A stretch of DNA of 64,000 bases. Origin: Octopus vulgaris. Taxonomy: Eukaryota. Shown in pieces: positions 11,701-63,172 of the stretch. The position numbers were made by a program, and so were the translations under genes. Numbering within the stretch: position 1 is the first letter of the stretch; each line of letters begins with the position of its first letter. Location of the stretch: NCBI GenBank assembly GCA_951406725.2, contig OX597840.1:34658001-34722000 (forward strand), read 5' to 3'. The notes beneath the pieces were generated by a model. That model saw nothing but the letters and a program-made list of their open reading frames with translations, was not told where the DNA came from and searched no databases.

Positions 11701-14700
11701 CCCGGTCTGGGAATCGAAACCTAATACGTCTTTCTCTTTTTCAAGACAATAGGATGTGATATGAGGGAAATTTGGCTGCGGTTTCTAGCAGATATTGCAA
11801 CAACATTGCTCGGGTTCTTATTTATTCGTTAATCTACTAATGTGAAACTAAGCAGTGAAAGCGGACAATGGACAATGAATAGTCCATTTCTTTATCCAAC
11901 TGGACGAACTACTTCCCAGCTCATAACCTACCGAGTTATAACAACATTGATTTCAAACTTTTGCACAAGGCCAGCAATTTCAGGGACGGGGTAAGTCGAT
12001 TACATCGACCTCAGTGTTCAACTGGTACTTATTTTATCGATGGAGGCACAATGGCCCAGTGGTTAGGGTAGTGGACACGCGGTCATAGCATCGCGGTTTC
12101 GATTCCCAGACCGGGCGTTGTGATTGTTTATTGAGCGAAAACACCTAAAGCCCCACGAGGCTCCAGTCGGGGTTGGTGGCGAACCCTGCTGTACTCTTTC
12201 ACCACAACTTTCTCTCTCTTTCTTCCTGTTTCTGTCGTACCCGTATTTCAAAGGACCAGCCTTGTCACGCTGAATCTTCCCGAGAACTACGTTATGGGTA
12301 CACGTGTCTGTGGAGTGCTCAGCCACTTGCACGTTAATTTCACGAGCAGGCTGTTCCGTTGATCGGATCAACTGGAACCCACGTCGGAGTGCCACGATTT
12401 TATTGATCCCGAAAAGATGAAAGGTAAAGTCCACCTCGGAGGAATTTGAACTCAGATCATAAAGACGGACGAAATGTCGCTAGGTATTTTGTTCGGAGAG
12501 AGAAGTAAAATAAAGACAAATAAATATGATTAGGGTGGCGAGCTGGTAGAATCGTTAGCACGCCGGGCGAAAAGCTTAGCGACATTTCGTCTGTCTTTAC
12601 GTTCTGAGTTCAAATTCCACCGAGGTCGACTTTTCCTTTTAAACTTACGAGGTCGATAAATCAAGTACCAGTTGAACTCGGGAGTCGATGTAATAGGTTT
12701 ACGTCTTGTCCGAAATTGCTGGCCTTGTGCCAACATGTGAAATCGATATCTGTTTATAACTTAAGGCGGAGGGTTGGCAGAATCGTTAGCACACCGGACT
12801 AAATGCTTTGCGACCACTTTGTCCGTCTTTACTTTCTGAATTCGTATTCCGCCGTCCGACTTTGTCTTTCATCCTTTCTGGATCGATAAAATAAGAACCA
12901 GTTGAACACTTAAATCGATGTAATCGACTTAACCCCTCCCCCGAAATTGCTGGCCTCGTGCCAAAATTTGTAATCAGTGTGTTTTTATAACCCGATGGCT
13001 TATGAACTGGGAACTGCCGTGAAGTGTACCAACACACAACAGTTCTTTATGGTTAGTCCAATTGAATAAGGAAGTGGAGTGTTCATTGTCCATTGTATCA
13101 TTTTAAGGCCAAGCAGAAACGCTTTCACTGGTTCGTTTCACATGAATAGATTAACAAATCGTGGCACTCCGTCGGCTACGACGACGAGGGTTCTAGTTGA
13201 TCCGAATCAACGGAACAGCCTGCTCGTGAAATTAACGTGTAAGTGGCTGAGCACTCCACAGACACGTGTACCCTTAACGTAGTTCTCGGGGAGATTCAGT
13301 GTGACAAGGCTGGGCCTTTGAAATACAAGTACAACAGAAACAGGAAGAAAGAGTGAGAGAAGGTTGTGGTGAAAGAGTACAGCAGGGTTTGCCACTATAC
13401 CCTGTTGGGGCCACGTAGAGCTTTAGGTGCTTTCGCTCAATAAACACTGACAACGCCCAGTCTGGGAATCGAAACCGCGATGCTATGACCGCAAGTCCAC
13501 TGCCCTAACCACTGGGCTATTGCGCCTCCACGATTAAGAAATAACCTGCAAATAAAATAAAAGTCGACACCATGAACGAAGGGCACCTGTATGGTGCTGT
13601 ATGATACGTCAACAGAGGGCAGCAGCGTGGGTAGTCGTTGAATCGGGTGTTCAGCTGATCGAATGACGCAATACTCATCGTCGAACTCGGTGGAGATCCA
13701 TTTACCTTTTATTTGCAAAGAGAAAACAACGGGAAATATATACATAGAAGCTAAGTAGACAGAGTCAGGGCTGTGTGGTTAAGAGGCTCGCTTCGCAACC
13801 ACACGGTTCCTGGTTCAGTCCCACTGCATGGCACCTTAAGCGACTGTCTTCTATTATAGCCCTGGGTCGACCAAAGCCTTATCAGTGGATTTGATTGACG
13901 GAAAATGTGTGGAAGCCCGTCGGTTTACATGTGTGTGTGTGTGTTTGAGTTTATTCTCCGTAACTTAACAGTTCGACAACACAGATCCGATATGACATGT
14001 ACGAGATTCAAGAAATAAATTCTGGGATCGATTTCGACTAAAACACATTCAAGTGCCCCAGGATGGCCGCAATCCAAGGAAAGAAAAAAGTAAAAAATAA
14101 AAAGTCATATCTTGCAAGGGAGGTAACTCTACTTAGCTTATGTATTTTCAAGGGAGACAATTCCCATAAATCGATTTCAAGTTTTTGCTTTTGCTCTTCA
14201 GTTATTGAGTTCGATACAAAATCACTTTTGCTGTTCAATTTTAAATTGAAATTGTTTGTTCGAGCCTTTTTTTTTTTTGGTTTTCTTAAAAAATAATTTT
14301 CACGGTTTTGTATTTATTAACGAATATTTAAGTGGAAAAAAAAAATATTTACTTTACTAACTGTAACATTGAAAAGTGTTATGAAACGCTTTTTTATCTC
14401 TCATTTTCCTCTTTTACTCTTTTACACGCTTCAGTAATTTGACTGCGGCCGTGCTGGAGCAACACATAAGCCTAGTACTTATTCTATCGATCTCTTTTTC
14501 CGAACCGTTAGATATTGGGGACGAAAACACAGACACAAAGACACACACACATAGATATATATACAATATATATACGACGGGATTCTTTCAGTTTCCATCT
14601 ACCAAATCCACTCACAAGGCTTTGGTTGGCCCAAGGTGCCAAGCTGTAGGACTGAACTCGGAACCATGTGGTTGGTAAGCAAGCTTCTTACCACACAGCC

Positions 14701-16996: not shown

Positions 16997-17787
16997 TTAT
17001 TTCTTTACTACCCCCAGGGGGCTAAACATAGAGGGGACAAACAAAGACTGACAAAGGGGTTAAGTCGATTATATCGACCACAGTACGTAACTGGTACTTA
17101 TTTAATCGACCCCGAAAGGATGAAAGGCGAAGTTGACCTCGGCAGAATTTGAACTCAGAACGTAGCGGCAGACGAAATACCTATTTCTTTATTACCCATA
17201 GAGGGGACAAACACAGAGGGGACAAACAAGGACAGACATAGGTATTAAGTCGATTACATCGACCCCAGTGCATAACTGGTACTTAATTTATCGACCCCGA
17301 AAGGATGACAGGCAAAGTTGACCTCGGCGGAATTTGAACTCAGAACGTAGCGGCAGACTAAATACCTATTTCTTTACTACCCATAGAGGGGACAAACACA
17401 GAGGGGACAAACAAGGACAGACATAGGTATTAAGTCGATTACATCGACCCCAGTGCATAACTGGTACTTAATTTATCGACCCCGAAAGGATGACAGGCAA
17501 AGTTGACCTCGGCGGAATTTGAACTCAGAACGTAGCGGCAGACTAAATACCTATTTCTTTACTACCCATAGAGGGGACAAACACAGAGGGGACAAACAAG
17601 GACAGACATAGGTATTAAGTCGATTACATCGACCCCAGTGCATAACTGGTACTTAATTTATCGACCCCGAAAGGATGACAGGCAAAGTCGACCTCGGTGG
17701 AATTTGAACTCAGAACGTAAAGACAGACAAAATACTGCTAAGCATTTCACCCGGGGCGCTAACGTTTCTGCCAGCTCACTGCCTTCT
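16997..17787 (-). mobile_element. SINE family B concatemer (one head, four bodies, 185-bp period)
   Basis: Identical junctions at about 17181, 17366 and 17551; the head is present only at about 17735-17787. Confidence 0.85.
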
Positions 17788-28397: not shown

Positions 28398-29292
28398 GTT
28401 ATATATGTATGTATGTATATATATATATAAACTTACATATGAGTGTGTGCGTGTATATATATAAATATATAAGTATATGTGTGTATATATATCACATGAT
28501 CACGTAACTGACCAGACCATCAGATGTTGTTACACATCGCTGGTCACAATGCATTCGCATTGTTTTAGCCTTCGAATGATGCCACCCCGCTGGCTAAGCG
28601 AGCAGGCCAACAGAAGAGAGGGTGAGAGAAAGAGTGGTGAAAGAGTACAGCAGGGATCACCACCACCCCACTGCCGGAATCTCGTGGAGCTTTAGGTGTT
28701 TTCGCTCAATAAACACTCACAACACACGGTCTGGGAATTGAAACCGCGATCCTACGACCGCGAGTCCGCTGCCCTAACCATTGCGCCTCCACGTGTATAT
28801 ATATATTGTTATATATGTATGTATGTATGTATGTATATATATATATATATAAACTTACATATGAGTGTGTGTATATATAAATAAAAATATATAAGTATAT
28901 GTGTGTGTATATATCACGTGATCACGTAACCGACCAGACCATCAGATGTTGTTACGCATCGCTGGTCACAATGCGTTCACATTGTTTTAGCCATCGAATG
29001 ACGCTAAGATGGGGGTATGATATCCAGGTAGATATCGAATTCTCAGAGTAAAATGCCAATACACACACACACACACAAATTTCTATTTGTACTTTTATAA
29101 TCAGTTGTTCATAATCTAACAAGGAAATGTAGACATTAAATTAACGATCGGGTAAAGTAGAGTATATGAGTTGGAGTTGAGGGGGTGCAGCAGTGAATTG
29201 ATAATTTAATGACCGAAAATTCTAGAACGAATCCAATGGCAACGTATTTTTTTTTGATTTCCTAACCTTGAGTCTGTATTCCTCTGTTGCAG

Positions 29293-29763
29293 TCCACACT
29301 TATGCAACCGACAATAATGGCAGCAACAATTCCTGTAGACGAAACTGCACGCGGTGAACTTGAATCAAATATGGTACCAGATGTTCCCTTGCCGTCGAAC
29401 CTTACCTATGCCTCGGGGCAATCTCAGGTGTGTAACAGCAGTCTGTTATCAAGCAATGCGGACGAAGCGATGAGAGAGAAATCTTGCAGCATCAACACAT
29501 CCAATGAGGAGGTCAACAAATTGGCGCTGTGCCCCTGGAGGTACGTGATCAACAGGGACGTGAACCGTGTTCCGCAAGACATCAAAGTGGCCAAGTGTTT
29601 GTGTGGCAAGTGTGCCGAAATGAGCAATTTCCTGAAGGAGTGCCGGACCATTTACAAAGACATGAAGATTTTTCGCCTCAACACTGCGACCGGTTCGTAC
29701 CAGCCAGAACTGGAAATGGTGCCAATCGCATGCGGATGCGGAATCTATTCCAAACAAGTGTAA
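29293..29763 (+). CDS. IL17: IL-17-like cytokine A, main exon (cystine-knot domain)
   Basis: Acceptor cctctgttgcag ends at 29292. The translation has IL-17 hallmarks LCPW...D.NRVP....AKCLCGKC...C..IY....FR....Y......VPIACGC; stop TAA at 29761-29763; GC-rich against the background. Confidence 0.92.
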   Translation, partial: STLMQPTIMAATIPVDETARGELESNMVPDVPLPSNLTYASGQSQVCNSSLLSSNADEAMREKSCSINTSNEEVNKLALCPWRYVINRDVNRVPQDIKVAKCLCGKCAEMSNFLKECRTIYKDMKIFRLNTATGSYQPELEMVPIACGCGIYSKQV

Positions 29764-29858: not shown

Positions 29859-29864
29859 AATAAA
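29859..29864 (+). terminator. Candidate polyadenylation signal of IL-17 A
   Basis: AATAAA about 95 nt after the stop codon, followed by T-rich sequence. Confidence 0.45.
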
Positions 29865-31283
29865 CTGTATTGTAATTTATCAGAACTTTTCACATCTCGG
29901 ACAAAATTCTTAGCGGCATTTCATTTGTCTTTGCATTCTCAGCTCACATCCATTGAGGTTGACTTTCCATTCAGCTTTTAGAGATTGATAAAATAAGAAC
30001 CAGTCAAGTACTGCGCTTGATGTAATTGCCTTCTCCTTCTCTTTAAAAAAATTCTGGCCCTTGACCAAAATTTAAAACCATTATCATAAAGACAGAAAAT
30101 TAATTTCAGCCTTCATCTGAAGCAGGTTCACATGTTGGAATATGTTTTGGTATTGAGTGAAGTTACCTTCTTCAGTCAGAGCCACACATAAGGGCCGGTT
30201 TCCTGGTTTCATGGCGTATATCTTCCTCCACCTGGATAGGACGCTAGTCCATCGCACAGTTTACTCCATTTTTCCTGCTGAGTAGACTGGACCAATGAGA
30301 AATGAAGTGTTTTGCTCAAGAACACAATCCATCGCCCGGTCCAGGAATTGAAACTACAATCTTATGATCACCTTAACCACTAAGCCATGCACCTCCATAT
30401 TCTTTGCTTTCGACCCCCCCCCCCTGCACCAAGAGACTTGTTGGTAGTTTCAAATGGTTTAAAATAGAATCACAAAGTTGTTGGTGCAGAGGGGGTGGCA
30501 TGGAAGCTTCTCTCTGCTCACCAGACAGATGCGTGTATATCTGTATCTGTCTGTCTGTCTATCTATCTATGTATAAATACATACATACATATATATATGT
30601 ATATATATATCTATATGTATATTTATATGTATATGTATATATATATATATGCACACACACACATATATTTATATACACTTACATATATACATATACATAC
30701 ATGCATATACACATATACATACATGCATATACACATATACTTACATGCATATATATATATATACATACATGCATATACACCCACCCACATACACAGCTAT
30801 TGTTGAATAAATAAAAATATTAAATATTTAATTGTCTGAAATAAAGAGTTGTTGTTAATTGATTATAATTTTACCATCCTAATTAGCCTCTCTGCACAGA
30901 GATGAATTTTTTTTTTTTTGTAATTAACAGAATAATTGAAGTGTTGGACTAAATACCTTGCAGTAATTAGGTACACCCTTTTACGTTCTCTGTTCAAGTC
31001 CCGTAGAGGTCAAGTTTATCTTTCAGTCGTGCAGGGTTGGTGAGAAATAAAGTACCAGTTATATATTGGGGGTTGATGTGAATGACTCTACCCTTTTCTT
31101 CAAATTTCTCACCTTGTGTCATCATCATCATCACCACCACCACCACCACCACCACTGTTGTCATCATTGTTGTTGTCGTCATCACCACCACCACCACCAT
31201 CCCCCCCCCCATCCTCACCACCACCACTGCCACCTCTTCCACCATCTAATACTGACTCATATCAGACGGCTGAAATAATATAA

Positions 31284-34149
31284 TCTATATATATAAAACT
31301 CTAGTTGTGTGAATGTCTGTCCCCTTCGATTTAGATTCCTAACTACTCCCACATTTTGTGGTGCAGTGTAACCAAAACCGGGTATCTTATAGTCGTGATT
31401 CATATCAAGCCCTTCTGGGTATTAGCACGCGTCTACGATGAGTCTACGATTTTAAAAATAATTTACCATCATTCTTTCCCATTTTAATGCATTTTTTTCG
31501 CTATTATATAAGGGAAGTAACTCTCTAAAAATGTCTACGATGAGTCAACGATTTAAAAAAAATTTACTATAATTCTTTTTCCATTTTTAATACATTTTTT
31601 TGCTATTTTTTGGCTATAACTCTCTAAAAATGCTTTATAGTTATTTCCCTTACAAACCCGAGCAACGCCGGGCGATACTGCTAGTAATCTATATATATAT
31701 AAAACTGTAGTTGTGTGAGTGTCTGTCCCCTTCGATTTAGATTCCTAACTACTCCCACATTTTGCGGTGCAGTTTAACCAAATTCGGGTATCTTATAGTC
31801 GTGATTCATATCAAGCCCTTCTGGGTATTAGCACGTGTCTACGATGAGTCAACGATTTAAAAAAAAATTTACCATAATTTTTTTTCCATTTTTAATGCAT
31901 TTTTTAATTTTTTTGCTATTTTTTTGCTATAACTCTCTAAAAATGCTTATATAGTTATTTCCCTTACAAACCCGAGCAACGCCGGGCGATACTGCTAGTA
32001 ATCTATATATATAAAACTGTAGTTGTGTGAGTGTCTGTCCCCTTCGATTTAGATTCCTAACTACTCCCACATTTTGCGGTGCAGTTTAACCAAATTCGGG
32101 TATCTTATAGTCGTGATTCATATCAAGCCCTTCTGGGTATTAGCACGCGTCTACGATGAGTCAACGATTTAAAAAAAAATTTACCATCATTTTTTTTCCA
32201 TTTTTAATGCATTTTAAAATTTTTTTGCTATTTTTTGGCTATAACTCTCTAAAAATGCTTATATAGTTATTTCCCTTACAAACCCGAGCAACGCCGGGCG
32301 ATACTGCTAGTAATCTATATATATAAAACTGTAGTTGTGTGAGTGTCTGTCCCCTTCGATTTAGATTCCTAACTACTCCCACATTTTGCGGTGCAGTTTA
32401 ACCAAATTCGGGTATCTTATAGTCGTGATTCATATCAAGCCCTTCTGGGTATTAGCACGTGTCTACGATGAGTCAACGATTTAAAAAAAAATTTACCATA
32501 ATTTTTTTTCCATTTTTAATGCATTTTTAAATTTTTTTGCTATTTTTTGGCTATAACTCTCTAAAAATGCTTATATAGTTATTTCCCTTACAAACCCGAG
32601 CAACGCCGGGCGATACTGCTAGTAATCTATATATATAAAACTGTAGTTGTGTGAGTGTCTGTCCCCTTCGATTTAGATTCCTAACTACTCCCACATTTTG
32701 TGGTGCAGTTTAACCAAATTCGGGTATCTTATAGTCGTGATTCATATCAAGCCCTTCTGGGTATTAGTGCGCGTCTACGATGAGTCTACGATTTAAAAAA
32801 AATTTACCATCATTTTTTTTTCCATTTTTAATGCATTTTAAAATTTTTTTGCTATTTTTTGGCTATAACTCTCTAAAAATGCTTATATAGTTATTTCCCT
32901 TACAAACCCGAGCAACGCCGGGCGATACTGCTAGTAATCTATATATATAAAACTGTAGTTGTGTGAGTGTCTGTCCCCTTCGATTTAGATTCCTAACTAC
33001 TCCCACATTTTGTGGTGCAGTTTAACCAAATTCGGGTATCTTATAGTCGTGATTCATATCAAGCCCTTCTGGGTATTAGCACGCGTCTACGATGAGTCTA
33101 CGATTTAAAAAAAAATTTACCATAATTTTTTTCCATTTTAATGCATTTTTTTGCTATTATATAAGGGAAGTAACTCTCTAAAAATGTCTACGATGAGTCA
33201 ACGATTTAAAAAAAATTTACTATAATTTTTTTTCCATTTTTAATGCATTTTTTTGCTATTTTTTGGCTATAACTCTCTAAAAATGCTTATATAGTTATTT
33301 CCCTTACAAACCCGAGCAACGCCGGGCGATACTGCTAGTAATCTATATATATAAAACTGTAGTTGTGTGAGTGTCTGTCCCCTTCGATTTAGATTCCTAA
33401 CTACTCCCACATTTTGTGGTGCAGTTTAACCAAATTCGGGTATCTTATAGTCGTGATTCATATCAAGCCCTTCTGGGTATTAGCACGCGTCTACGATGAG
33501 TCTACGATTTAAAAAAAAATTTACCATAATTTTTTTCCATTTTAATGCATTTTTTTGCTATTATATAAGGGAAGTAACTCTCTAAAAATGTCTACGATGA
33601 GTCAACGATTTAAAAAAAATTTACTATAATTTTTTTTCCATTTTTAATGCATTTTTTTGCTATTTTTTGGCTATAACTCTCTAAAAATGCTTATATAGTT
33701 ATTTCCCTTACAAACCCGAGCAACGCCGGGCGATACTGCTAGTAATCTATATATATAAAACTGTAGTTGTGTGAGTGTCTGTCCCCTTCGATTTAGATTC
33801 CTAACTACTCCCACATTTTGCGGTGCAGTTTAACCAAATTCAGGTATCTTATAGTCGTGATTCATATCAAGCCCTTCTGGGTATTAGCACGCGTCTACGA
33901 TGAGTCTACGATTTTAAAAATAATTTACCATCATTTTTTTCCATTTTAACGCATATTTTTTTAAATATAAGGGAAGTAACTCTCTAAAAACGTCTACGAT
34001 GAGTCAACGATTTAAAAAAAAATTACCATAATTTTTTTTCCATTTTTAATGCATTTTTTTTTTTTGCTATTTTTTTGCTATAACTCTCTAAAAATGCTTA
34101 TATAGTTATTTCCCTTGCAAACCCGAGCAACGCCGGGCGATACTGCTAG
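31284..34149 (+). mobile_element. Head-to-tail array of 8 non-autonomous Helitron units
   Basis: Each unit starts TCTATATATATAAAA and ends with hairpin CCCGAGCAACGCCGGG followed by CTAG. Starts at 31284, 31688, 32002, 32314, 32626, 32938, 33342, 33746; periods about 404/314/312/312/312/404/404/404. Confidence 0.9.
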
Positions 34150-34260
34150 TGTGTATATAATATAATGTGCCAGTTGGAAAAGAGAAGAGACACAACCGAG
34201 TAGAAGGCTTATGGAAGATTTATTCATATATTTACAGGCATTTGTCATCACAACCACCAC

Positions 34261-34334: not shown

Positions 34335-34635
34335 ACAAAGTTACCAACCACCTCACCAACAACAACAACACTGAACACCTTTTTGATCTCCATGTGTCCA
34401 ACACCCGTGGACATGCCTACAAAGTCAGAAAGCAACACAGCTCCTTCCATGACTTTCGGAAACATTTTCTTCACGCTCAGGGTTGCTGAAGCATGGAACA
34501 AACTGCCTGCGTCAGTTGTTGACTGCCATGACACTGCATCCTTTAAGGCCCTCATGCTTTCCGAAATCCGCCGAAACTACACCTGATTATATATACACTT
34601 TAGATGAGTTGTAGTGCACCTGAGCACTGTATACA

Positions 34636-34700: not shown

Positions 34701-34820
34701 TCATCATCATCATCATCATCATCATTGTAACCATTGCTGTCGTCATCATTGTCATCATTTAATGCCCATGTTCCGTACTGGCCCATGGACATTAATAATT
34801 ATAAATAATTATCGTTACGA

Positions 34821-35300
34821 CTATTCCGAGGGCTGAAGCCATTGCTCTTTTGCGTTGACATATTGTATCTGAGGGGCGTGGCACGTGCAGGCTATCGGCA
34901 CCTTGTCCCAGGCGTGCACATAGGACCCCTGGTCTGTATCGTACCTGAGCACGTTCATCACCCTGTATATGGGGGAGCAGACGTTCAGCGACTCCGGTAT
35001 GGCACACTTCTGGCAGCGGCATTTCGCGGCGTTGATGTGTTTCGGGATGCGGTTGACGTCGGTGTGAACGTAGCTGGTCCACGGACAGAGGGAGAGTTCG
35101 GATACGGCATCGCTGGACACGTTGATGTTGCAGGATCCGTCCGATTCCGCTTGGCTCGCGTTGACGTCGAGGATGTGCAGGCAGCCGTCGAGCGACGTCT
35201 TGTGGTGTTCGCTGCATGGACTGGATGGCAACGAGGCAGCGTTTGGGTGGTGCGTTGGGAGAAGGGTCAGCGTTAACAACAAGACGGAACAGACTTGAAG
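34821..35300 (-). CDS. IL17: IL-17-like cytokine B, main exon (cystine-knot domain)
   Basis: Minus-strand acceptor tatatttcag (AG at 35302-35301). Hydrophobic LQVCSVLLLTLTLL, then LCPW...D.NRIP....AKCRCQKC...CSPIY....LR....Y......VPIACTC; stop TAG at 34823-34821. The N-terminal 39 aa of the tracked ORF are intronic microsatellite. Confidence 0.92.
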   Translation of the reverse strand, partial: LQVCSVLLLTLTLLPTHHPNAASLPSSPCSEHHKTSLDGCLHILDVNASQAESDGSCNINVSSDAVSELSLCPWTSYVHTDVNRIPKHINAAKCRCQKCAIPESLNVCSPIYRVMNVLRYDTDQGSYVHAWDKVPIACTCHAPQIQYVNAKEQWLQPSE

Positions 35301-35339
35301 CTGAAATATAAGTGTTGTCATCATCATCATCATCATCAT

Positions 35340-35790
35340 AAACATACATACATATATACATACATACATGCATGCATACATACATTCATACATACATACA
35401 TACATGCATGCATACATTCATACATACATACATAAATACATGCATGCATACATACATACATACATACATACATACATACATACATACATACATACATACA
35501 TACGTACATACATACATACATACATACATACATACATGCATACATACATACATACATTTATACATACATTCATACATACATACATAAATACATGCATGCA
35601 TACATGCATGCATACATACATACATACATACATTTATACATACATACATACATACATACATACATACATACATTCATACATACATACATAAATACATGCA
35701 TGCATACATGCATACATACATACATACATACACACACACATACATACATACATACATACACACACACATACATACACACACACAGACAGA
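35340..35790. repeat. (TACA)n tetranucleotide tract in the IL-17 B intron
   Basis: Directly visible; inverse (TATG)n tract at about 36595-36890. Confidence 0.95.
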
Positions 35791-37932: not shown

Positions 37933-38699
37933 GGCAGTTTGTCTGTCTGTGTGTCTGTGTGTCTGTCAGGTTGTACCCTCACCCTAACCACGGCTTTCAA
38001 CCGATTCTGATGAAACTTGACACACACATAGCCCAATGTCATAATTCAAAACTAATGCAGCGAAAATTTTGAAAAGTTCCCCCAGTTCTGAAAAAAATCG
38101 ATAAATTTGACATGGAGTCAAGAATCTAAGCTTATCATATGCAACACATTTTCCGTTGTAGTTTTCGCAACATGCAATCGATTTTCACCAAACTCATGGT
38201 GAAGCTTAATGTTACCCTAAGGAACTTAATTCTGTCGTTAGTTTTCCATGCAATATCTTACCATCAGAAAAAATCGATAAAATCATGCCATTTTGGGAAA
38301 TCGCGTTCAAATTCAAGATGACATATTTTCGACAATATCTTTCACAAATTGGCAGGAATTTTTTTTGAAATTCACAGCGAGCATCATGTCTGCTCCAAGG
38401 AGCTATATGGCCCTTTTGATTCCAATAGGATACGTTATTACTTGAAAAAATCGGTTAATTACATCATATGTGGCACACATAGCAAACCGATGTTTCTGTG
38501 ATATTTTTTGAAAGTTCACATAGATTGTCCCTACTTCTTCATGCATGCAAGGGAACGGTGCCTTGAATGCCTTAATGTCTTTTAGGCTTCATTTTACAAA
38601 ATAACGGTTCAATGAGTACAAAAATGGGTAAAAAGGTAGAGGGCATTGCTTATCGACAAAGTTTCTTACATACCGGGCAACGCCGGGCTATGCTGCTAG
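37915..38699 (+). mobile_element. Non-autonomous Helitron (second family)
   Basis: (TA)nAAA start merged into a microsatellite, (GTCT)-type tract, 3' hairpin CCGGGCAACGCCGGG at 38673-38687, CTAG|T end at 38696-38699. Confidence 0.75.
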
Positions 38700-46374: not shown

Positions 46375-46753
46375 CTAGCAGTATAGCCCAGCGTTGCTCG
46401 GGCTTGTTTTCTTTTCGACCCTTTAGAATTGGAATTTTTGAAAAGTAAAAATTTTGCATTATGTAGCTTGTTATTCTCTTTAAGTGAACATTTTTCTGGT
46501 TGAAATACACCGAAAAATGGCGACACAGCAGTCAAAAAATCGTAAAAAAATAGGGATTTTCATAGAAAAAAAGCACCTTTTTGATGTAAATAATTTTTGG
46601 TGTTAACATGGTCCGATTTGAATTGAAGAGCAAGCCTTCTTCTATCATACTCTCAATTTTGGTCAACTTGTGCCGCAGGGTCTCAGAGGAGATAGTGTTA
46701 GTTGAAGGCTACCAAACCTGCCACACACAGACAACTTCAGCTTTATATATAGA
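46375..46753 (-). mobile_element. Non-autonomous Helitron (third family)
   Basis: Minus strand starts TCTATATATAAAG and ends CCCGAGCAACGCTGGG-ctatactg-CTAG|T. Confidence 0.8.
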
Positions 46754-50479: not shown

Positions 50480-51167
50480 TACGAGGGGTGGGGCTGAACA
50501 GTTCCTGGCTTTGGGTAAAAGAAAATACAGGAAGAATCAGTTAATTATGATTTTATCCAACATATTCCCCCCTCAGATACACACACTTATTGCAGCGGTC
50601 CTTCAGTTTTTCTAAGCCCTGTTAAAGAACTCAAAAGGTCAGGCCTCTAATCAGGCATATAATGACACCCTTAAAGCCAGGGAATTTTCTGTACCCGCTT
50701 ATATATATATTTTATACATACATATGAGGGGTGTTGAAAAGTTCCTGGCTTCAGGTAAAAGAAAATCCAGGAGGATCAATTAATTATGATTTTATTCAAC
50801 ATATTCCCCTCTCAGATTCACACACTTATTGCAGTGGTCCTTCAGTTTTTCTGAGCCCTGTAAAAGAACTTGGAAGTTTGGGCCCCTAACCAAACATTTC
50901 ACGACACCCTTAAAACCAAGAACTTTTCTGCCCCCACCTCATATATATATCTTTTATATACATATGAGGAGTGTTAAAAATTTCCTGGCTTTGGGTAAAA
51001 GAAAATAGAGGAGGATCAGTTAATTATGATTTTATCCAACATATTCCCCCCTCAGATTCACACACTTATTGCAGTGGTCCTTCAGCTTTTCCAAGCCCTG
51101 TTAAGGAACTCAGAAGAGGCCTTCCATGATACCCTTAAAGCCAGGAACTTTTCAGCACCTCCTTGTA
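50480..51167. mobile_element. Three tandem mariner-derived MITEs (~240-bp period)
   Basis: Copies at about 50480-50703, 50723-50943 and 50963-51167; TIR resembling TACGAGGGG.GCTGAAAAGTTCCTGGCTTT; minus strand retains a transposase tail of the KLKD.CNKCVNLRGEYVE* type. Confidence 0.8.
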
Positions 51168-60039: not shown

Positions 60040-60634
60040 CACTACACTCATGGAACACTACACTCACGGTGTGGTCGGCATTAGGAAGGGCATCCAGCCG
60101 TAGAAACTCTGCCAGACCAGACTGGAGCCTGGTGCAGCCTCCTGGCTTCCCAGACCCCAGTTGAACCGTCCAACCCATGCCAGCACGGAAAGCGGATGCT
60201 AAACAATGATGATGATGTATACATAAATACACACACATACACACACATATGTATACAGACAGACGGACAGCCACACACACACACATGTGTGATGGGCTTC
60301 CTTACAGTTTCTGTCAACCAAATTTACTCAAAAAATTGGCCAGGGGCTATAGGTGACGATATTTGCCCAGTGTGCCACACAGTGGGATTGAACCTGGAAC
60401 TAAACAGTCGGAAAGCACACTTCTTAACCACAAAACAACATCTGTGCCAAAAATAGAAAACAAACCAAAAAAAAACCCCCAAGGAGTGGCTGTGTGGTAA
60501 GTAGCTTGCTTACCAACCACATGGTTCCAGGTTCAGTCCCACTGCGTGGCACCTTGGGCAAGTGTCTTCTACTATAGCCCCGGGCCGACTAAAGCCTTGT
60601 GAGTGGATTTGGTAGACGGAAACTGAAAGAAACC

Positions 60635-60677
<43 letters not shown>

Positions 60678-63172
60678 TATAGGCGTAGGAGTGGCTGTGT
60701 GGTAAGTAGCTTGTTTACCAACCACATGGTTCCGGGTTCAGTCCCACTGCGTGGCACCTTGGGCAAGCGACCTCTACTATAGCCTCGGGCCGACCAAAGC
60801 CTTGTGAGTGGATTTGGTAGACGAAAACTGAAAGAAGCCTGTCGTATATATGTATGTGTATATATATATGTGTGTGTATGTGCGTGTTTGTCCCCCCAGC
60901 ATCACTTGACAACCGATGCTGGTGTGTTTACGTCCCCATCACTTAGCGGTTCGGCAAAAGAGACCGATAGAATAAGTACTAGGCTTACAAAGAATAAGTC
61001 CTGGGGTTGATTTGCTCGACTATAAAGGCGGTGCTCCAGCATGGCCGCAGTCAAATGACTGAAAACAAGTAAAAGAGTAAAAGAGTAATAGAGTAAGTAA
61101 AGAAAAATTACCGTATTTTCTCTTAGTTTTTTTTCTCTCCAAAGATTTCGGAACAAATGAAGAATTTGGAATCGGAAGATTTCTTCCCTGACAATCCTCC
61201 AAAGACGTAAATCTTAGGTCCACAGGCAATTAAACACTCACAGACAATCAGATTATCACAAACTGTAATATTTGATGTCTTTAGTAAACAAGCAATTATG
61301 AAATATAGATTTCACAGCGTACGCTTATATATGCTCCCCCGGTTTAGCAAAATCATTGAATTAGGAGATAAGACTCCAAAGTAGAATAGATAGATAAATT
61401 GAATCAAACAATTAATTAAGATTTAGTGGGAGTGGGGAGGGGGACGGGGTGGAGGTGGAGGTGTAACGAACCATTTTAGGAAAACAATGGAACTGATAAC
61501 AAATTTTAATTACTTAATCAGCAGGTATTTCCAATTTCAATTATTAATGCATACACACATACATTCATATATACACACACATACATATATATGCATTCAT
61601 ATATACATGGATATAATACACATGTGCGCAGGAGTGGCTGTGTGGTGAATAGCTTGCTTACCAACCACACGGTTCCGGGTTCAGTCCCACTGCGTGGCAC
61701 CTTGGGCAAGTGTCTTCTACTATAGCCTCAGGCCAACCAAAGCCTTGTGAGTGGATTTGGTAGGCGGAAACTGAAAGAAGCCCGTCCTATGTATGTATAT
61801 ATATGCAAGTGTGTGTTTGTGTGTCTGTGTTTGTACCCCTAGCATTGCTTGACAACCGATGCTGGTGTGTTTATGTCTCCGTTACTCAGCGGTTCGGCAA
61901 AAGAGACCGATAGAATAAGTACTGGGCTTACAAAAGAATAAGTCCTGGGGTCGAGTTGCTCGATTAAAGGCGGTGCTCCAGCATAGCCGCAGTCAAATGA
62001 CTGAAACAAGTAAAAGAGTAAAAGAGCATACGTATATATACACATGTAGACACACACATGCACATACACACACACACACTATAATTATCTTAATTTATTT
62101 TTTGGTGATTATTGCTCGTCAAATAAATAAATAATTGTTTTTTTAAAAATCGGTGAAGACTGCAAGTCATAGTTTAAAATGATAACGACCACCCGTCACC
62201 ATCCTACCATCCTCCCCTGTCACTTTTGAAACGTTAACTTGTTTATAAATTTCCATTTTTAGATTTATGTTTCAGACTTTGGAAATAATTATAATTCTGG
62301 CCAAAAATAAATTCACAAACTCAAGATTTTTGCAAATCTTTCTCTTCTCCAGGAAACCTTACGCTAACCTCAAACTTAAAATCTGACCCCTAAATTCTAA
62401 CTTTAAAGTTAGGGTATATTTTTTTTAATCAGCCACTCATTCTCATTTCAAATTACTCTTTTACTTGTTTCAGTCATTTGACTGTGGCCATGCTGGAGCA
62501 CCGCCTTTAGTCAAACAAATCGACCCCAGGACCTATTCTTTGTAAGCCTAGTACTTATTCTATCGGTCTCTTTTGCCAAACTGCTAAGTCAGGCCGCACC
62601 GTAGCTATATAAACCCTCAGATAGATAGCCGAAGAGCGGCTCACAAAGGCCAACCATTGTTGCCGGCTTGGGTGTTCATTTCTTGAGACATCATTTGTTG
62701 CCCGACAAGTTTTATGTTTGGAAAATTGTTTGTAAAATGATTTGTTCATGATGAGAGGCATTTGTAAACTGTATAGATCGATAGTGTGGGGGCGCAATGG
62801 TCCAGTGGTTAGGGCAGTAGACTCGCGGCTGGAGGATCGCGGTTTCGATTCCCAGACCGGGCGTTGTGTGTGTTTATTGAGCGAAAACACTTAAAAGCTC
62901 CATGAGGTTCCGGCAGGGGGTGGCGACCCCTGTTGTACTCTTTCACCACAACTTTCTCTCAATCTCTCTTCCTGTTTCCTGAGTATTGCGATGGACTGGT
63001 GTCCTGTCCAGCTGGTGGGGGGGAGGCACATATGCCACAGAAACTGGGAAACCGGGTCCATGAGCCTGGCTAGGCTTGAAAACGGCGAGATTACTCATTA
63101 TATATTGATAGTATTGAACATAAATCATGAGTGATATAGTTTTGAGAGGAATATAAAAAAAAAAAACAGAAA

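What the first reader, a model, noticed from the sequence alone, without database searches (positions are those of the whole stretch)
31284..34149. Eight-unit Helitron concatemer with a fixed TAA spacer, wedged between two converging IL-17 genes
Seen: eight complete TC...hairpin-CTAG units head to tail in the order long-short-short-short-short-long-long-long. Long units carry an extra ~92-bp internally duplicated segment. All seven junctions read CTAG-TAA-TC, and the first unit is also preceded by TAA. Known: Helitrons move by rolling circle and insert between A and T; a simple circle junction would be CTAG|TC. Inference: the constant 3-nt spacer and two interleaved unit types point to a circle that captured flanking bases, repeated self-targeted insertion, or unequal-crossover expansion from a long/short dimer, i.e. 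a Helitron turning into a satellite. Its position could insulate or couple the two cytokine 3' ends.
Basis: partly seen in the sequence, partly recalled or inferred. Interest (0 to 1): 0.72.

Follow-up and report, generated by a model that had tools for sequence, protein, structure and literature searches.

The report
Helitron pair grown into eight-copy array
Eight copies of a very common rolling-circle transposon (Helitron) sit head to tail with the same three host-like bases at every joint, likely because two separate copies landed three bases apart and ordinary unequal recombination then multiplied that one joint, so it is likely a small transposon-to-satellite step rather than a product of rolling-circle copying.

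Summary
The array is real: eight TC...CTAG units (L-S-S-S-S-L-L-L, 31284-34149), and all seven joints read CTAG-TAA-TC. The element is a non-autonomous Helitron with about 24,800 exact 3' ends in this 2.8-Gb genome. TAA is not part of it (4 of 68 monomers have it 5') and is no family-wide joint: 7 of 11 such joints genome-wide lie here, against 248 gap-free ones. This is the only run of three or more spacered joints that the census pattern found. The units are mosaics of two founders (U1 and U8 differ at 18 sites; U6 equals U7; the four short units share a private 8-base insert). That fits two insertions 3 bases apart, then unequal exchange, as shown for hobo and R1 in Drosophila. It does not fit a one-step concatemer. 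Elsewhere, 27 of 28 head-to-tail pairs are dissimilar copies, so most such joints here likely come from insertion at a resident's head. The array sits inside an older repeat. How the TAA before unit 1 arose is unresolved. Nothing links the array to IL-17 function. The scan noted similar stacking and unequal-exchange cases elsewhere in this genome.

The parts
31284..31684 (+). Unit 1, long; founder A. Its head differs from all other units at 5-7 of 135 sites
31688..31998 (+). Unit 2, short (one internal repeat); 2 substitutions from unit 8 over the shared length
32002..32310 (+). Unit 3, short; carries the array-private 8-base insert
32314..32622 (+). Unit 4, short; carries the private insert
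32626..32934 (+). Unit 5, short; carries the private insert; most diverged short unit
32938..33338 (+). Unit 6, long; head like unit 8, body from position 200 like unit 1 (2 substitutions against 7 to unit 8): likely recombinant
33342..33742 (+). Unit 7, long; identical to unit 6; internal repeats at about 33489-33590 and 33590-33689
33746..34149 (+). Unit 8, long; founder B; 3' hairpin at about 34122-34137, end CTAG at 34146-34149
31685..31687 (+). First of seven TAA spacers (others at 31999, 32311, 32623, 32935, 33339, 33743); likely one host remnant copied by recombination
31241..31283 (+). Left piece of an older dispersed repeat that the array interrupts; ends in TAA
34150..34245 (+). Right piece of the same older repeat; 34157-34169 is one copy of a 13-bp local duplication whose other copy is split by the array
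29272..29763 (+). IL-17 open frame (stop to stop; Pfam domain 29527-29739); stop 1.5 kb left of the array; candidate poly(A) signal at 29859
34821..35417 (-). IL-17 open frame (stop to stop; Pfam domain 34881-35093); stop 0.67 kb right of the array; candidate poly(A) signals at 34758 and 34669

Best explanation
The array is eight copies of a non-autonomous Helitron, likely formed when two separately transposed copies landed three bases apart inside an older repeat, after which unequal recombination likely copied their single TAA joint six more times. Shown: element ends, the family's A|T insertion rule, the two distinct founder sequences, the mosaic inner units and the locus-private spacer. 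Inferred step 1: copy B (unit-8 type) inserted at an A|T with an AT-rich right flank. Inferred step 2: copy A (unit-1 type) inserted just upstream, drawn there because the family's own AT-rich head resembles its preferred target, which left TAA between the two. Inferred step 3: out-of-register exchange between A and B, and between the 101-bp internal repeats, made the B-head/A-body units (6, 7) and the one-repeat units (2-5). The transposase likely took no part in step 3, because its joins are precise CTAG|TC. The array is likely neutral.
For: Spacer private to this locus: 7 of 11 CTAG-TAA-TC matches genome-wide are here. Of the other 4, three are joints to a second element and one has none, against 248 matches of the gap-free pattern (2 of the 20 fetched had no second element). 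Census of spacered joints: 86 found, 6 here; the other 80 carry many different spacers, and only two lie within about 1 kb of each other. TAA is not element sequence: it is the 5' triplet in 4 of 68 monomers and the 3' triplet in 2 of 68; A before in 65 of 68, T after in 68 of 68. Two founders: U1 and U8 differ by 18 substitutions, more than either differs from its nearest dispersed copy (13 and 12); the U1 head differs from U2-U8 at 5-7 sites, while U2-U4 heads are identical; 0% of 200 bootstrap trees hold all eight heads together. Local amplification: U6 = U7 over 401 bp; the short units carry a 15-base run where 106 outside copies have 5-10. The U6 body is 2 substitutions from U1 and 7 from U8, the hybrid that unequal exchange in an A-B dimer predicts. 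Double insertion is common here: 262 head-to-tail joints for one head type against about 3 expected by chance (rough sum); 27 of 28 measurable pairs differ at 12 or more sites. Precedent: the hobo array with one 8-nt motif at all joints (PMC5932611, passages). Helitron circle joints are mostly precise (PMC4778049, PMC5876387, passages).
Against: The flanks joined directly give a perfect 13-bp duplication with a single TAA. A plain double insertion needs TAA twice in the empty site, so one extra slip is required; the site is slippage-prone (a 13-base insert replaces one base of the paralogs), but no empty allele was seen. The head tree is weakly supported, and one outside copy is only 1-3 differences from the U2-U4 head. 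The U6 body is equally close to outside copies (1 substitution, 3 gaps), so a third founder is possible. Four of 13 neighbouring pairs in seven other clusters differ by 9 or fewer substitutions, so some multimers elsewhere could be rolling-circle products. About half of the Helraiser circles in one assay had aberrant joints (PMC5876387, passage).
Confidence: 0.75

Rival explanations
1. The second insertion was staggered and duplicated three target bases (a target-site duplication, which Helitrons are not known to make); recombination then expanded the dimer.
For: The spacer equals the triplet just 5' of unit 1, and the directly joined flanks give the best local duplication (13 bp, against 10 and 7 for the alternatives).
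Against: Among 17 spacered joints elsewhere, 12 had a measurable upstream flank; the spacer matched it in 3, all pure TA runs, and in neither of the two measurable TAA cases. Helitrons lack target-site duplications (PMC4778049, passages).
Confidence: 0.1
2. Three insertions on different haplotypes at sites 3 bases apart, with allelic crossover inside the element putting TAA on both sides before expansion.
For: Explains TAA before unit 1 without a slip; a third founder is not excluded; the family is abundant and site-selective.
Against: Needs more events at one site; 27 of 29 paralogs of the host repeat read through this site and none carries the element there.
Confidence: 0.07
3. Rolling-circle concatemer from a circle that captured TAA by 3' read-through, inserted in one step and later diverged.
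For: Fixed spacer and complete units; 3' bypass and imprecise circles occur in Helraiser; Helitron arrays are usually ascribed to rolling circles (bioRxiv 10.1101/2024.11.21.624632, PMC12001565, passages).
Against: Units differ by up to 18 substitutions and fall into two founder types; no sister array elsewhere; a circle of the A-B dimer would alternate TAA with gap-free joints, and 0 of 7 are gap-free.
Confidence: 0.05
4. Assembly artefact inflating the copy number.
For: Units 6 and 7 are identical; no read spanning the array was examined.
Against: Seven of eight units are distinct sequences; the assembly has 227 contigs for 2.8 Gb, so a 2.9-kb array is likely spanned by single reads (inference).
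Confidence: 0.03

Closest known systems
Double insertion followed by unequal exchange: hobo array in D. melanogaster line I03 and R1 tandem array (McGurk and Barbash 2018, PMC5932611; passages read)
   Same: Complete elements head to tail, one identical short motif at every joint, one locus, dimers common because of target preference.
   Different: There the motif is a target-site duplication. Here the element makes none, so the spacer is likely host sequence left between two insertions. Polymorphism was shown there and is untested here.
Non-autonomous canonical Helitrons (Helibat/Helraiser type; PMC4778049, PMC5876387; passages read)
   Same: 5' TC, 3' CTAG, subterminal hairpin, insertion between A and T, no coding capacity, a RepHel-coding element with a like 3' end in the genome.
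   Different: Helraiser circle joints are mostly precise CTAG|TC; this array has none. The shared sequence with the RepHel element covers only the last 36 nt.
Rolling-circle Helitron tandem arrays (Xiong et al. 2016, seen only as described in review PMC12628747, passages; Xenopus arrays of 2-7 units, PMC12001565, passages)
   Same: Head-to-tail Helitron arrays of a few copies.
   Different: The plant arrays are described as often truncated, with many 5' ends and one 3' end. Here all eight units are complete, spacered and mosaic.
Helitrons inserting near other Helitrons (Yang and Bennetzen 2009, seen only as cited in review PMC12477314, passage)
   Same: Strong clustering of family members.
   Different: Here it is resolved to the base: new copies sit directly at, or a few bases before, the head of a resident copy.

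Membership tests
Non-autonomous canonical Helitron | 5' TC and 3' CTRR termini | tested here: met
   8 of 8 units
Non-autonomous canonical Helitron | Subterminal hairpin | tested here: met
   6-bp stem ending about 12 nt before the end, -4.5 kcal/mol; no shuffle control was run
Non-autonomous canonical Helitron | Insertion between A and T without target duplication | tested here: met
   A before in 65 of 68 and T after in 68 of 68 dispersed copies; lack of duplication judged from the flanks listed, not from empty alleles
Non-autonomous canonical Helitron | RepHel-coding partner with matching ends | tested here: inconclusive
   8 of 11 fetched RepHel loci share the last 36 nt (30-32 identical); two proteins scanned carry Helitron_like_N and PIF1; no match to the 5' head was found
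Non-autonomous canonical Helitron | Mobilised by RepHel | not testable with these tools
   Needs a transposition assay
One-step rolling-circle concatemer | Precise CTAG|TC joints | tested here: not met
   0 of 7 joints
One-step rolling-circle concatemer | Units from one template | tested here: not met
   0-18 substitutions between units, two founder types
Double-insertion array expanded by unequal exchange | One joint motif at all joints of one locus only | tested here: met
   7 of 7 joints here; no other run of 3 or more among 86 spacered joints
Double-insertion array expanded by unequal exchange | Distinct terminal founders and hybrid inner units | tested here: met
   a third founder is not excluded
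Double-insertion array expanded by unequal exchange | Joint motif derived from the target site | tested here: inconclusive
   Paralogs of the host repeat lack the local duplication, so the exact empty site is unknown
Double-insertion array expanded by unequal exchange | Copy-number polymorphism among individuals | tested here: inconclusive
   Contigs of other runs were swamped by paralogs

The most novel reading that the evidence does not exclude
The Helitron transposase can join the two ends of an incoming copy at target sites three bases apart when it inserts at the head of a resident copy, creating a 3-bp target duplication that rolling-circle elements are not thought to make; this array would have preserved and multiplied such a joint.
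Probability: 0.1. Interest if true: 0.6.

Novelty: new variant of a known kind. Interest (0 to 1): 0.28.

Why it matters
It extends the double-insertion route to transposon arrays to an element that makes no target duplication, with the founders still readable in the units. It also carries a caution: head-to-tail Helitron joints are often read as signs of rolling-circle concatemers, but in this genome most measurable pairs join dissimilar copies (27 of 28), so joints alone do not show that. The array itself is small and likely neutral, and no link to IL-17 regulation was found.

Tried and rejected
Empty-allele search in other sequencing runs: the look-up of sequencing runs listed 24 runs. Contigs of five of them, laid on the left flank and right flank, were dominated by Helitron and host-repeat paralogs, and no listed contig settled the state of this locus. 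One search did reveal the host repeat. No RNA data were examined. 'TAA is the true 5' end': rejected (4 of 68). 'Short type came from the dispersed short subfamily': such copies exist (89-93% identity among the best of 40 scored candidates), but 0 of 26 carry the 8-base insert and most have a different head, so it was rejected; this sample is the best hits, not all copies. 'Eight insertions into a TAA microsatellite': rejected, because inner units share private markers. One sub-test (exact run context for U2-U4) failed through an empty motif and was redone. IL-17 coupling: with one exact 3' end per 113 kb, a 5-kb gap holds a copy about 4% of the time, the genome has 64 IL-17 matches, and candidate poly(A) signals lie outside the array; not supported, not excluded. 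Literature: 7 searches listed no paper on this array or on spacered Helitron arrays from double insertion. The octopus repeat paper PMC13282606 (passages) mentions Helitrons only as a class. Supplements were not read, and Xiong 2016 and Yang and Bennetzen 2009 were not read directly.

Full report
Observation. The window lies on contig 27 of a 2.8-Gb genome in 227 contigs; earlier scan notes on this genome call it the common octopus (not checked by me). Positions 31284-34149 hold eight complete units of 401, 311, 309, 309, 309, 401, 401 and 404 bp. Each starts TC and ends CTAG, and all seven joints read CTAG-TAA-TC. Unit 1 is preceded by TAA and unit 8 is followed by T. Long units have two internal repeats of about 101 bp (88% alike); short units have one. 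The neighbours are two facing IL-17 frames, 44% identical to each other, the only two on this contig among 64 matches in the genome.

The element. The last 21 bases occur exactly 24,779 times in the genome, with 0 for the reversed control. I delimited 79 dispersed copies most like these units (53 long, 26 short) and dropped 11 that did not start with TC or directly followed another copy. Of the remaining 68, 65 follow an A and 68 precede a T; the 5' triplet is ATA in 35 and TAA in 4; the 3' triplet is TAA in 2. Positions +6 to +12 of the right flank are almost all A or T, as is the element's own head. A hairpin folds near the 3' end. The genome has many RepHel frames (150 scored). Of 11 that I fetched for their long frames, 8 carry the same last 36 bases (30-32 identical), 7 of them ending in CTAG just after a 1,500-1,740-residue frame; two scanned proteins have Helitron_like_N and PIF1 domains. 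No match to the unit's head was found in them. So this is a non-autonomous canonical Helitron; its exact mobiliser is not shown.

The spacer. CTAG-TAA-TC with this head occurs 11 times genome-wide, 7 of them here. Three of the other four are single joints to a second element, and one has no second element. The gap-free pattern occurs 248 times. For one head type, 262 joints with a gap of 0-30 bases exist; by my count of the 100 listed, 51 are gap-free, 35 join a head lacking TC, 11 have a spacer, 3 are other, and none has TAA. A census of spacered joints found 86, all listed: six belong to this array (joint 1 is missed because unit 2 has an extra TA), two more have TAA, and the rest have many spacers, mostly TA runs. 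Only two of the 80 outside lie within about 1 kb of each other. The fixed spacer is therefore a property of this locus, not of the element or of its transposition.

How pairs form in this genome. About 3 close head-to-tail joints are expected by chance (rough sum), against 262 seen. Of 38 joint loci examined, 28 could be delimited on both sides; 27 of these pairs differ at 12 or more sites, often joining different subfamilies (two of the loci look like one duplicated segment). That points to separate insertions at the head of a resident copy, which matches the target preference (inference). Against this as a universal rule, 4 of 13 neighbouring pairs in seven further clusters differ at 9 or fewer sites. 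The largest cluster among 73 fetched joint loci of 3-7.6 kb had four 3' ends (some loci overlap).

History of the array. Units 1 and 8 differ by 18 substitutions, while their nearest dispersed copies differ by 13 and 12. The unit-1 head differs from the other seven at 5-7 of 135 sites; heads of units 2-4 are identical and those of 6-8 are one step from them. No bootstrap tree of 200 groups all eight heads, though support is weak and one outside copy is 1-3 differences from units 2-4. Units 6 and 7 are identical; their head is of the unit-8 type, and their body from position 200 is 2 substitutions from unit 1 and 7 from unit 8. This is the hybrid expected when an A-B dimer recombines out of register, though outside copies are as close to that body, so a third founder is possible. 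The four short units share a 15-base T/A run where 106 outside copies have 5-10 and unit 8 has 12; unit 2 is 2 substitutions from unit 8. The short type thus likely arose here from founder B by loss of one internal repeat, not from the dispersed short subfamily (0 of 26 carry the insert). A join made by the transposase should be gap-free (PMC4778049, PMC5876387, passages), and none of seven is; homologous exchange, by contrast, copies the dimer's single joint into every new one.

The site. Contigs laid on the right flank ran on into sequence like the left flank. The flanks are two halves of an older dispersed repeat: 27 of 29 fetched paralogs read straight through the site, without the Helitron. 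This copy differs from them by a 13-base insert in place of one base, forming a local duplication. Joining the flanks directly gives a 13-bp perfect repeat; adding or removing three bases gives 10 or 7. This slightly favours an empty site with a single TAA, which a plain double insertion does not explain without one extra slip. A staggered insertion or allelic crossover would explain it. In other pairs, spacers matched the upstream flank in 3 of 12 measurable cases, all pure TA runs, so target duplication is no habit of this family. The point stays open.

IL-17. The array lies 1.5 kb and 0.67 kb beyond the two stop codons, and candidate poly(A) signals lie between each stop and the array. At the family's density, a copy in a 5-kb gap is unremarkable. 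No RNA was examined, so an effect is neither shown nor excluded.

Comparison. The closest case is the hobo array of McGurk and Barbash (PMC5932611, passages): a double insertion expanded by unequal exchange, with one motif at every joint. Helitron arrays of a few copies are known and usually ascribed to rolling circles (PMC12001565, bioRxiv 10.1101/2024.11.21.624632, PMC12628747; passages), and Helitrons are reported to insert near each other (PMC12477314, passage). Seven searches listed no report of this array; supplements were not read.

Verdict. Real, well explained by a known route applied to a Helitron; one detail (the TAA before unit 1) is unresolved. Interest 0.28.

Noticed in passing
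window 31241-31283 and 34150-34245; L123-L151: An older dispersed repeat of unknown class (at least 40 scored copies, 81-95% identity, about 250 bp shared among paralogs) hosts the array; this copy is a fragment between CAC/CAT microsatellites.
   Followed up: partly
G000, joints listed; L255-L266: About a third of head-to-tail joints lead into heads that lack the TC, often in TA microsatellites; the new copy sits at a nearly fixed distance from the resident's A-run, which suggests the target is measured from a downstream AT motif.
   Followed up: partly
L231:1182-7343 and like loci (L229, L233, L239, L245, L247, L248): A young autonomous Helitron family (copies about 99% identical upstream of the frame, frames of 1,500-1,740 aa with STPR repeats) shares the last 36 bases with the small element.
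   Followed up: partly
window 38665-38699 (+) and 46375-46407 (-): Two further Helitron 3' ends; the first resembles the autonomous family's end.
   Followed up: no
G000:C20:47213007-47214074: Two joints with the same 6-base spacer 1,038 bp apart: possibly a second, smaller locally expanded array.
   Followed up: no
L188, L186, L191, L198, L200, L201, L059, L087, L252, L253: Many ~400-bp copies share one identical upstream flank, which looks like a fixed internal site of the ~500-bp subfamily (nested insertion or a composite element); L188 does not share it.
   Followed up: no
window 34370-34590: Fragment resembling the 3' end of a LINE reverse transcriptase (recalled motif; similar DNA in L127 and L131).
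   Followed up: no
G000:C1:14.76-15.02 Mb and C1:131.7-132.5 Mb: Two large IL-17 clusters hold most of the 64 matches; the pair in this window is isolated from them.
   Followed up: no
window 16998-17735, 50495-51116, 60482-60869, 12544-12975: Other short tandem runs of 185-240-bp units (2-4 copies), probably SINE-like repeats.
   Followed up: no
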